From NCBI RefSeq assembly GCF_044324785.1, contig NZ_CP172128.1: a stretch of DNA of 64,000 bases; one strand, 5' to 3'. Origin of the DNA: Escherichia coli. Lineage in GTDB: Bacteria; Pseudomonadota; Gammaproteobacteria; Enterobacterales; Enterobacteriaceae. The position numbers were made by a program. Below are positions 60,101-63,100 of this stretch, one piece after another; position 1 is the first letter of the stretch, and each line of letters opens with the position of its first letter.

Positions 60101-63100
60101 TCATTTGCTTCACGCACGGTGGTGGTTACGCAAACTTCGGTAGTCACGCCACAAACAATAAGTGTCTTGATACCACGCTTTTGCAAAATCAGATGTAAGT
60201 CGGTTTGATAAAAAGCGCCTTTACCGGGTTTATCAATCACAGGTTCGCCTGTCACTGGATACAGTTCAGGAATGATGTCATGACCTGCCTCACCCCTGAC
60301 CAGAATGCGTCCCATCGGTCCTGGTTCACCAATAAAGGTTTTTCCGCCGCGCGTCAGTTTGGCTGATGGGCAGTCGCTTAAGTCTTCACGATGGCCTTCA
60401 CGGGTATGAATAACCATAATTCCTTTTTGACGTGCGGCTACCAGAACTTCTTTACATGGTGCGATAGCCGTGCGAACCAGTGAAACATCATTACCCAATG
60501 CTTCTCCAAACCCTCCTGCTTCGACAAAATCACGTTGCATGTCTATCATGATCAGTGCCGTTGTGCACGGATCAAAGGGTAATTCAAAGGGTTGAGCCTG
60601 AAAAATGGATATCGTCATGACAAATCTCCAGTATATATTGTTTACTGGTGACGAGTATTCAATATAAAGGTGACCCACAACAGAAAAAAAAGTTGTTTTA
60701 CAGGAGCGAATATTTTTGAGGTGTCTAAATGTTGTTATGAAAAATGTGATTTATATCAATCTATGACATTCATAAACAACTTTTTTCAAATGTTTATTTG
60801 TTTAATATTAAAAAAATTGTCGATATATTGTGATATTAATCATCCTATTTGGCAGGGATAGTGCTGATTTTTAACAAATACCCCTTACATCCGTCCTTCA
60901 ACGGGGATATAAAGCGCTGTTTTCCACCTAACCAGGTGTCTGCTGCTATTCAATGTATTGGCGGATGACGGATGCCGCCCGTTGAAGCAGGAACCCACGT
61001 CCTTAGGGCGTGGAGGATGTCAAATACCCGCCCTCATTGAGAGAGAAGCTACGAGATTTTCGCTAAGGGACACAGGTCATACGGGAGATGGCGGTTCCCA
61101 GCGTTTATCCTGCTCCGGCGGAGGCAGTGATGCGTCATCGTTGCTGTTCGCCGCGATATAATCGCGGTAGTAGCGTTCACTTCCTTCCCGGTGATGATCC
61201 ACATCCGGTCGTGTAATCCTGTAGTCTTCGTGACCGGTACGGCCTGTCACATTATGCCAGGCAACCATTTCAGCAAAGACCTGGTTAAATTGTTTGTCGT
61301 TTCCTTCTGGTTCAAAGCCCATTCTGGGATCACGCTCAAACAATACAGGTGCAATCAAATCCAGTTTATCTGCCAGCGCATTGCGGTCATGGTGATTACG
61401 GAAAACAACCCTGTCACCATAATCCGTACAGACAAACTCTCCCGTCCGACGGTCACGGAAACGAACACTCCCGTTCTTCTGCAAACGGGCCTCGAGATCA
61501 CCGGTATTACCGTATACCGGCGTTCCGCCCGGTTCACAAAGCACGACACAGCGGTCTGTTGTTGTTGTGCGTGACTTGTCTTTACGGCGATCGCGATAAT
61601 CCCAGCCTCTCAACTGCGATACAGCAGCCCTGTCTCCCTGAGCAGCCTGAATTTCGACCCACTGACGGTAAGAGGGTGGATACCACTTCCCGTCAGCAAT
61701 AAGTTTCTGTCGCTCATCCCTGATGTCTTCTTTCAGCCTGATCAACGCCTGCATTCGCTGAACTTCTGCAATGTGATAATGCAGCTTACGTAATGCCGGA
61801 TCATCGTACTGCGCACGAATGTGTGACTTCCGCAGACGGCATGCCTGATGAATTTCCCGACAACGTTCCCCATTACGCAGATCTGGTTTACGCCATTGTT
61901 CACGCCATGCCAGATAGCGGGCACGCAGGTCAGCACGGGCCTCAGCTCTGGCTTCACGTCGCTGCCGGCGCAGCATTGGGTCACGTTTACTGCTGACCCC
62001 GTACCTGTCACTGACAGCCAGCTCCGGGTTATAGCGACTTTCAGGTTGCACCCTGTCAAACAAATCTGCTGGGGCACTCACAAAAGGTCCGGCCTGTGGC
62101 TCTGCACGCCCCAGAGTCAGATCAGGATGAATGCTGCTGGCCTTCACCGGCGTTTGCTCATGATTAAAGGCATCAACGACAACAAGCCCGTGATGTTGTT
62201 TCTGTAGCATCAGTCCCTGTTGTGCAAACAGCTCATGACAACGCTGCCAGGTAAACTCACCCTGTGTGATCATTTCTTCAATCTGAGGGCTACAATGGCT
62301 GATGCTGTATCCCCACAGACTTTCTTTATCAGAAAACAGTTCGCGTTTGATAGCCCCCTGCGGCCCCGTGCCTGTACGCATACGGTGCCATTCTTTATCG
62401 GTCGCAGGACAGCTCTCCATACGACGACCACGGAAGCGTTCTGTTGGCGTAACCTGGCGGAAAATATCTGTTGGTACAGGCTGCCAGCCACCATCGAGTT
62501 GATTCACATTGTCGAGCGTCAGCAGTGACCATACGCTGTCAGCACGAACGGGAGTCTGGTTATGATATTTTTCGGATCCCGGTGAAAAAAGAGAGAAACA
62601 TGCAGATACCATGCATATCCATATGTTTGGCATCTGCATATGACAGGCATACGCATATCTCACACATCTGCATATCTATAACATATACATATGTATCACA
62701 TCTGCATATACTAAACATATATAAAAGCCGTCTTGCCAGGAGGAAGACATGAGAACCGTATCTATTTTCAAAAATGGCAATAACCGCGCGATCCGTCTGC
62801 CCCGCGATCTGGATTTTGAGGGGGTGAGTGAGCTGGAGATTGTACGGGAAGGGGACAGAATCATTCTGCGTCCCCTCCGCCCGAGCTGGAGCTCATTCCT
62901 GGAGCTAGAAAAGGCCGATCCGGGCTTTATGACGGAACGCGAGGACGTTGTCTGCGACGAAGGACGATTTAACCTGTGAACAAGATCTATATGCTCGACA
63001 CGAACATCTGCTCGTTCATCATGCGCGAGCAGCCTGAAGCAGTGCTTAAGAATCTGGAGCAGGCGGTGCTGCGCGGTCACCGTATAGTGGTCTCGGCCAT

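What the first reader, a model, noticed from the sequence alone, without database searches (positions are those of the whole stretch)
61077..62663. Large uncharacterised protein adjacent to vapBC and the island boundary
The ORF is up to 528 aa and I could not assign any family from its sequence. It has a charged, Arg-rich, coiled-coil-like centre and Cys/His-containing N-terminal and C-terminal regions. It lies between the right island repeat and the repeat array upstream of vapBC, so it could be a mobile-element-associated DNA-processing protein or a regulator.
Basis: seen in the sequence. Interest (0 to 1): 0.45.

Follow-up and report, generated by a model that had tools for sequence, protein, structure and literature searches.

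The report
Truncated nikB relaxase gene remnant
The "large uncharacterised protein" is the leftover back half of a well-known plasmid-transfer gene (the IncI1 relaxase nikB), which has lost its catalytic front half and is already marked as a pseudogene in public annotation, so it is ordinary.

Summary
The ORF is real: 61077..62663, minus strand, 528 codons. It is not an unknown protein. Codons 34-527 are 492/494 identical to residues 405-898 of the 899-aa IncI1 relaxase NikB, and the DNA at 61084-62566 is about 98.6-98.9% identical to intact nikB. The first 33 codons are a read-through of the 17-nt repeat array upstream of vapB. The relaxase nuclease domain (NikB 84-203), nikA and oriT are absent from the window. 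The 5' breakpoint is a 6-nt microhomology (TATGAT, 62561-62566) between nikB and vapB-upstream DNA. The 3' end sits at or near the nikB stop, 52 nt from the right island repeat. That 3' junction is in 84 plasmids. The 5' junction is in only 11. Other plasmids carry an identical remnant of only 434 nt, cut by an IS, so one old scar was trimmed in different ways. I found no Shine-Dalgarno sequence and no minus-strand promoter. RefSeq already annotates this stretch as "nikB, incomplete, missing N-terminus". Verdict: a recombination relic that is already known, of low interest. A small residual possibility is an expressed dominant-negative fragment.

The parts
61077..62566 (-). nikB-derived segment: the 3' 1,490 nt of the IncI1-type relaxase gene (NikB residues 405-899 equivalent, including the stop). 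This is the pseudogene proper.
   Evidence: blastn gives 98.65% identity over 1,483 nt to nikB of pColBM-B1 and 98.85% to pZPK-H5. BLASTP gives 492/494 identity to NikB 405-898. PGAP annotates it as 'nikB, incomplete, missing N-terminus' at the equivalent coordinates.
62567..62663 (-). Leader of the ORF that is not NikB (codons 1-33). It is an accidental open frame across the vapB-upstream repeat DNA.
   Evidence: There is no NikB counterpart. The DNA is 100% identical to the vapB-upstream region of pSD_88, which has no nikB. None of the GTG/ATG candidates at codons 1, 9, 11 and 18 has a Shine-Dalgarno sequence.
62561..62566 (.). 5' truncation breakpoint: the hexamer TATGAT, shared by both parent sequences (microhomology junction).
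   Evidence: A three-way alignment and exact-match extension place it. vapB-side identity runs from 62666 down to 62561, and nikB-side identity runs up to 62566.
61077..61088 (.). 3' boundary zone of nikB homology, at or just before the stop codon TGA (61079-61077). The IncI1 terminator hairpin and trbC that normally follow are absent.
   Evidence: Alignment with the IncI1 nikB 3' end. The last codons vary between alleles. The downstream flank shows no similarity to IncI1 nikB-downstream DNA.
62076..62348 (-). The only recognisable Pfam domain left: a TraI-like middle domain (ORF residues 106-196 = NikB 477-567), the third of three such modules in intact NikB.
   Evidence: Pfam PF22863, E=1.1e-9 in the ORF. 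Intact NikB has three copies plus Relaxase PF03432 at residues 84-203.
61025..61076 (.). 52-nt spacer between the right island repeat and the nikB stop.
   Evidence: It is present together with the nikB 3' end in 84 plasmids.
60891..61024 (.). Right copy of the 134-nt direct repeat that bounds the 8.7-kb metabolic island (left copy 52205-52338). This is context and not part of the pseudogene.
   Evidence: the repeat finder family D6, 98% identity. There is a single hybrid copy in the island-free plasmid pE15-3.
62597..62709 (.). Array of six repeats with a 17-nt period upstream of vapB (presumed vapBC control region). The ORF's leader reads through part of it.
   Evidence: the repeat finder family D1. 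The one promoter-like site here is on the + strand, at 62684-62712, facing vapB.
62749..63392 (+). vapB (62749-62979) and vapC (62976-63392), an intact neighbouring toxin-antitoxin pair transcribed away from the remnant.
   Evidence: ORFs. They are annotated as VapB/VapC in all identical records.

Best explanation
The ORF is a non-functional relic of the IncI1-type conjugative relaxase gene nikB. Shown: an IncI1-type nikB became joined to the module that holds the right island repeat. Its 5' 1,210 nt are missing, and the missing part encoded the HUH nuclease domain and two of the three TraI-middle modules. nikA and oriT are missing from the window too. The present 5' end is a junction between nikB and the vapB-upstream region at a 6-nt microhomology (TATGAT). 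Because the repeat DNA beyond the junction happens to contain no in-frame stop, the frame stays open for 33 more codons, which produces an apparent 528-aa 'protein'. Inferred: the junction arose by illegitimate recombination. The fragment is probably not translated at a meaningful level. If it were translated, it could not nick DNA or start transfer. Its intact frame and mostly synonymous differences were inherited from the once-functional gene, because the truncations are recent.
For: Identity: 492/494 aa to NikB 405-898, about 98.6-98.9% DNA identity to intact nikB, and NCBIfam TraI_MobP_relax at E=2.3e-50, covering only profile positions 170-496 of 502 and scoring 172 bits against a cutoff of 250. 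Lost parts: Pfam Relaxase PF03432 lies at NikB 84-203 and is absent from the ORF. blastn and tblastn find no other nikB, nikA, oriT or trbC sequence in the 64-kb window. Junction: TATGAT microhomology resolved against both parent sequences. Decay history: the 3' junction is in 84 plasmids and the 5' junction in 11. pAPEC-O2-MS1657-1 and p1ColV5155 carry only a 434-nt remnant, in the first case abutting a frameshifted DDE-transposase gene, and it is 100% identical to the window over that length. No plasmid combines this 3' junction with a complete nikB-nikA-oriT. Expression signals: no Shine-Dalgarno sequence before any early start codon and no minus-strand promoter-like site upstream. Substitutions: 11 of 12 changes private to the remnant are synonymous, and 6 of the 12 lie in the part that is identical in the separately truncated copies, so they predate the truncations. 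Public annotation: PGAP calls it 'nikB, incomplete, missing N-terminus'. Background: nikA, nikB and oriT are each required for IncI1 transfer (PMC4288162; PMC6112013). In MOBP systems the accessory protein NikA recruits NikB to oriT (PMC12857230).
Against: The reading frame is uninterrupted across all 1,490 nt, and copies in different plasmids differ by 0-1 nt, so there is no positive sign of decay inside the fragment. That is expected for a young relic but does not prove non-function. Promoter and RBS scans are crude, and translation without a Shine-Dalgarno sequence does occur. One RefSeq record (pE16-3) annotates the stretch as a 511-aa hypothetical protein rather than a pseudogene. I had no transcript or protein data.
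Confidence: 0.9

Rival explanations
1. The fragment is expressed as a catalytically dead C-terminal NikB polypeptide. It would start at one of the ATGs in the leader (PGAP once chose codon 18) or at an internal ATG. It would then interfere with incoming or co-resident IncI1 plasmids, for instance by competing with full-length NikB for the coupling protein or the type IVB secretion channel. That would make it a dominant-negative fertility inhibitor.
For: The frame is intact over 1,490 nt. The carrier plasmids I checked are I-complex, and the one I read in full has its own relaxase that is only 67% identical, so a foreign NikB tail could in principle discriminate between systems. One PGAP run called it a 511-aa CDS. 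It is general knowledge, not tested here, that relaxases are T4SS substrates and that their non-catalytic regions carry the recognition determinants.
Against: No RBS or promoter was found. The N-terminus is an accident of a recombination junction. In other lineages the same scar has been cut down to 434 nt by an IS, which argues that nothing maintains its length. Only 11 plasmids have this form. The synonymous-biased substitutions predate the truncation.
Confidence: 0.04
2. The segment matters as DNA and not as a gene. A 1.5-kb patch 98-99% identical to IncI1 nikB gives RecA a substrate for cointegrate formation or gene exchange between this plasmid and co-resident IncI1 plasmids. This is a consequence of the relic, not a selected function.
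For: There are 1,483 nt at 98.2-98.9% identity to nikB in well over a thousand IncI1-type plasmids of E. coli, Salmonella, Shigella and Klebsiella. The region is visibly mosaic, with IS copies, repeat-bounded island gain or loss, and the same module on both IncF and I-complex backbones.
Against: I looked for no recombinant that used this patch and found none by chance. The idea is compatible with the best explanation rather than opposed to it.
Confidence: 0.1
3. This is the first reader's reading: an independent, uncharacterised mobile-element protein or regulator of 528 aa with its own function.
For: Only the length of the ORF and its unusual composition.
Against: It is 99.6% identical to residues 405-898 of a characterised relaxase. 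Its leader comes from vapB control DNA. PGAP annotates it as a pseudogene.
Confidence: 0.01

Closest known systems
NikB, the MOBP-family relaxase of IncI1 plasmids (R64 / ColIb-P9 type; NCBIfam NF041893 TraI/MobA(P) conjugative relaxase)
   Same: Residues 34-527 of the ORF are 492/494 identical to NikB 405-898. The DNA is 98.2-98.9% identical to nikB alleles of IncI1/I-gamma plasmids. The third TraI-middle module and the Arg-rich C-terminal region are retained.
   Different: The N-terminal 404 residues are missing, including the MobA/VirD2 nuclease domain (PF03432, NikB 84-203) and two TraI-middle modules. It scores below the NCBIfam cutoff, 172 against 250 bits. It has no adjacent nikA, oriT or trbC. 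It carries a foreign 33-codon leader.
Shorter nikB remnants in IncF ColV virulence plasmids (e.g. pAPEC-O2-MS1657-1, p1ColV5155)
   Same: They share the same 3' junction to the same 52-nt spacer and island repeat, and they are 100% identical over the shared 434 nt. PGAP also annotates them as 'relaxase NikB, missing N-terminus'.
   Different: They are cut at a different 5' point. In pAPEC-O2-MS1657-1 the cut abuts a frameshifted DDE-transposase gene rather than the vapBC region. They sit on IncF rather than I-complex backbones.
Resident relaxase of the IncK2/Z carrier plasmid (WP_072648818.1, 900 aa, in pLH10-b-1-A)
   Same: It has the same family and architecture, and the remnant aligns end to end with its residues 407-898.
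   Different: It is only 67% identical in protein and about 71% in DNA. The remnant is therefore not a duplicate of the host plasmid's own gene. It is a foreign IncI1-type fragment.

Membership tests
IncI1-type relaxase NikB (MOBP / TraI-MobA(P) family), as a functional member | N-terminal HUH relaxase (MobA/VirD2 nuclease) domain carrying the catalytic residues | tested here: not met
   Pfam PF03432 is found at NikB 84-203 (E=3.5e-30) and is absent from the ORF. The ORF starts at NikB residue 405.
IncI1-type relaxase NikB (MOBP / TraI-MobA(P) family), as a functional member | Whole-protein score above the curated NCBIfam cutoff for NF041893 | tested here: not met
   172 bits against a cutoff of 250, with only profile positions 170-496 of 502 matched. 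Intact NikB scores 414 bits.
IncI1-type relaxase NikB (MOBP / TraI-MobA(P) family), as a functional member | Relaxosome context: nikA accessory gene and oriT immediately upstream | tested here: not met
   blastn and tblastn of the IncI1 trbC-nikB-nikA-oriT region against the whole window return only the 3' nikB segment. vapBC control DNA lies upstream instead.
IncI1-type relaxase NikB (MOBP / TraI-MobA(P) family), as a functional member | Nicking and transfer activity | not testable with these tools
   This needs biochemistry or mating assays. Loss of the nuclease domain makes activity implausible (inference).
nikB pseudogene (gene fragment derived from IncI1 nikB) | Near-identity in DNA and protein to part of nikB, collinear and without gaps | tested here: met
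   1,483 nt at 98.65-98.85% identity with no gaps, and 492/494 aa identical.
nikB pseudogene (gene fragment derived from IncI1 nikB) | Defined truncation breakpoint joined to unrelated DNA | tested here: met
   The 5' breakpoint is at the TATGAT microhomology, 62561-62566. The 3' homology ends at 61077-61088.
nikB pseudogene (gene fragment derived from IncI1 nikB) | Lack of expression | tested here: inconclusive
   No Shine-Dalgarno sequence and no minus-strand promoter-like site were found, but these are only consensus scans and no expression data were available.
vapBC type II toxin-antitoxin module | The ORF is a component of, or is co-transcribed with, vapB/vapC | tested here: not met
   The ORF is on the opposite strand and diverges from vapB. 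In pSD_88 and other plasmids the same vapBC module with its upstream repeats occurs without any nikB sequence.

The most novel reading that the evidence does not exclude
The NikB C-terminal fragment is translated and acts as a decoy or dominant-negative against IncI1 relaxosomes. That would give I-complex virulence plasmids of poultry E. coli a way to interfere with competing IncI1 plasmids.
Probability: 0.03. Interest if true: 0.45.

Novelty: already known. Interest (0 to 1): 0.06.

Why it matters
It matters little as biology. This is a recombination scar, and NCBI's pipeline already labels it a nikB pseudogene. It has some practical value. First, it is a caution for annotation, because the same DNA is called a pseudogene in most RefSeq records and a 511-aa 'hypothetical protein' in one. 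Second, relaxase-based plasmid typing may count such relics, although I did not verify this: the carrier plasmids are listed with 3-4 MOBP hits. Third, the two precisely mapped junctions, and the fact that 84 plasmids share the 3' junction while only 11 share the 5' one, make useful lineage markers. They can trace how the ColV/ColBM-type virulence and metabolic module moved between IncF and I-complex backbones in poultry-associated E. coli.

Tried and rejected
1. A PDB sequence search with the ORF gave no hit at E<=1. It was uninformative, and the NikB identity made it unnecessary.
2. An Rfam scan of 60500-63600 at E<=0.1 gave no hit, so no known structured RNA explains the region.
3. I asked whether the remnant is a duplicate of the host plasmid's own relaxase. 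Rejected: they are only 67% identical in protein and about 71% in DNA.
4. I asked whether the remnant belongs to the 8.7-kb island. Rejected: the island-free plasmid pE15-3 has the same remnant beside a single repeat copy.
5. I asked whether the 186 nt downstream of the stop are the native nikB-downstream DNA of some IncI1 variant. I found no similarity to three IncI1-type loci or to the DNA downstream of the resident relaxase.
6. I searched with a chimeric query (right repeat + spacer + full nikB-nikA-oriT) for an ancestral intact state. No record covers the junction plus a complete nikB. Remnants of intermediate length cannot be excluded by that search.
7. I considered reading the 19:3 and 11:1 synonymous bias as evidence of selection on the fragment. 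Rejected: the changes are shared with separately truncated copies and so predate the truncation, and only three reference alleles were compared.
8. A literature search for a described nikB remnant in ColV plasmids turned up nothing specific.
9. 99.6% identity to a named protein makes them unnecessary.

Full report
OBSERVATION. The ORF listing confirms an open frame at 61077..62663 on the minus strand, starting with GTG and 528 codons long. The composition claims hold in part. Residues 201-300 contain 21 arginines. The ORF lies between the right copy of a 134-nt direct repeat (60891-61024, partner at 52205-52338) and a six-copy, 17-nt-period repeat array upstream of vapB (62597-62709).

IDENTITY. 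The first profile search already places the ORF. NCBIfam NF041893 (TraI/MobA(P) conjugative relaxase) matches at E=2.3e-50, but only over profile positions 170-496 of 502, and at 172 bits against a curated cutoff of 250. Pfam finds a single TraI-like middle domain. Megablast against plasmids shows that window 61084-62566 is 98.1-98.9% identical to nikB of IncI1/I-gamma plasmids. In pColBM-B1 nikB is 2,700 nt, and the match covers its 3' end. At protein level, ORF residues 34-527 equal NikB 405-898, with 492/494 identical and no gaps. Residues 1-33 have no NikB counterpart. Intact NikB carries the MobA/VirD2 nuclease domain at residues 84-203 and three TraI-middle-like modules at about 238-316, 344-421 and 477-567. 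The ORF keeps only the last module and the C-terminal tail. blastn and tblastn of the IncI1 trbC-nikB-nikA-oriT region against the whole window return nothing but this segment.

PUBLIC ANNOTATION. In RefSeq records identical to the window, PGAP annotates the equivalent of 61077-62564 as 'nikB: IncI1-type relaxase NikB; incomplete; missing N-terminus'. One record, pE16-3, instead calls it a 511-aa hypothetical protein starting at the ORF's codon 18.

JUNCTIONS. At the 5' end, a three-way alignment with nikB and with pSD_88 resolves the breakpoint to the hexamer TATGAT (62561-62566). pSD_88 is an IncF plasmid that has vapBC and the same upstream DNA but no nikB. TATGAT is present in both parents. 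To its left the window follows nikB, and to its right it is 100% identical to vapB-upstream DNA. This is the signature of illegitimate recombination at a microhomology, which is an inference from the sequence. The repeat DNA beyond the junction has no in-frame stop for 33 codons, and that is why the ORF appears to be 528 aa long.

At the 3' end, nikB homology ends at or just before the stop codon (61077-61088). The IncI1 terminator hairpin and trbC are absent. The 186 nt that follow are unrelated to any nikB-downstream DNA I held.

HISTORY. Junction-spanning queries show the 3' junction in 84 plasmids and the 5' junction in only 11. In pAPEC-O2-MS1657-1 and p1ColV5155, both IncF ColV plasmids, the same 3' junction is followed by only 434 nt of nikB. 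In pAPEC-O2-MS1657-1 this abuts a frameshifted DDE-transposase gene. The 434 nt are 100% identical to the window. This points to a single ancestral acquisition that was trimmed differently in different lineages. A chimeric query found no plasmid that joins this 3' junction to a complete nikB-nikA-oriT. The island-free plasmid pE15-3 has one hybrid repeat copy followed by the same 1,490-nt remnant, so the remnant belongs to the backbone and not to the island.

HOST CONTEXT. Window 39364-64000 matches pLH10-b-1-A at more than 99.9%, apart from one extra IS-sized insertion. The best overall match is pEF5-18-41_2. pLH10-b-1-A has a full tra/trb/pil set and its own intact 900-aa relaxase. That relaxase is only 67% identical in protein and about 71% in DNA to the remnant. 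The remnant is therefore a foreign IncI1-type fragment and not a duplicate of the host's gene.

EXPRESSION AND SELECTION. None of the start candidates at codons 1, 9, 11 and 18 has a Shine-Dalgarno sequence. The consensus scan finds no promoter-like site on the minus strand upstream of the ORF. The one site in the repeat array faces vapB. Against one intact allele the differences are 19 synonymous and 3 nonsynonymous. Against three alleles, 11 of 12 private changes are synonymous. Six of those 12 lie in the 434 nt that are identical in the separately truncated copies. They therefore predate the truncations and reflect selection on the former intact gene, not on the fragment. Copies of the remnant differ by 0-1 nt, which is too little to test for decay.

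MECHANISM. According to the literature, nikA, nikB and oriT are each indispensable for IncI1 transfer (PMC4288162; PMC6112013). NikA recruits NikB to oriT (PMC12857230). The IncM NikB aligns with ColIb-P9 NikB only over residues 1-388 (PMC6112013, Table 1). The part retained here (405-898) is therefore the lineage-specific, non-catalytic part. A product of this ORF could neither nick DNA nor start transfer. The best-supported reading is an inert recombination scar (confidence about 0.9). Two minor alternatives remain. One is an expressed dominant-negative or decoy fragment, at about 0.03-0.04. The other is a passive role as a 1.5-kb homology patch for recombination with IncI1 plasmids, which is compatible with the main reading.

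VERDICT. The feature is a known, annotated nikB pseudogene. Novelty: already known. Interest: low.

Noticed in passing
window 52205-52338 and 60891-61024 (island 52339-60890): An 8.7-kb metabolic island is bracketed by 134-nt direct repeats that are 98% identical. It carries a LysR regulator, cytosine permease, an allophanate-hydrolase-related gene, arcC, DUF1116, fdrA, DUF2877 and a cysteine hydrolase. The island-free plasmid pE15-3 has one hybrid repeat copy, with left-type variants at its start and the right-type variant near its end. That fits island loss or gain by recombination between the repeats. What the repeat itself is remains unknown.
   Followed up: partly
window 62597-62709: There are six tandem copies with a strict 17-nt period (core CATCTGCATAT), which also form imperfect inverted repeats, directly upstream of vapB. 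The array is 100% identical in pSD_88 and in other vapBC plasmids that lack nikB. It is presumably the vapBC operator/promoter region.
   Followed up: partly
L001:2994-5693 (intact NikB, residues ~238-316, 344-421, 477-567): Intact NikB contains three tandem, diverged TraI-middle-like modules, 26-30% identical to each other. Pfam detects only the third with confidence.
   Followed up: no
window 47085-47853 and 50674-51442; window 49196-50523: Two IS1A copies in inverted orientation (769 nt, 100% identical) flank a segment that contains an endonuclease/exonuclease/phosphatase gene. Within that segment the window has an extra insertion of about 1.33 kb, 96% identical to an IS3-family element, which is absent from pLH10-b-1-A at that site.
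   Followed up: partly
records NZ_CP100531.1, NZ_CP119729.1, NZ_CP063494.1, NZ_OY754359.1 (loci L009, L010, L013, L014): The carrier plasmids combine a ColV/ColBM-type virulence and colicin module with I-complex (IncK2/Z or IncI-gamma/K1) backbones. MOB-suite lists them with 3-4 MOBP relaxase hits, so the nikB relic may be inflating relaxase counts. I did not verify this.
   Followed up: no
L015:287-1822 (pE16-3, = window 61077-62612): PGAP is inconsistent. Here the stretch is called a 511-aa 'hypothetical protein' (WP_430874402.1), while almost identical records call it a nikB pseudogene.
   Followed up: yes
window 63396-63422: A GC-rich hairpin just after vapC was picked up as terminator-like on both strands. 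It is a possible bidirectional terminator.
   Followed up: no
window 8681-9508, 17569-17789, 20322-20868, 22518-22973, 24928-25404, 63899-64000: There is a dense set of 100%-identical direct and inverted repeats of 100-480 nt. They are probably multiple copies or fragments of the same insertion sequences, and one arm reaches the end of the window.
   Followed up: no
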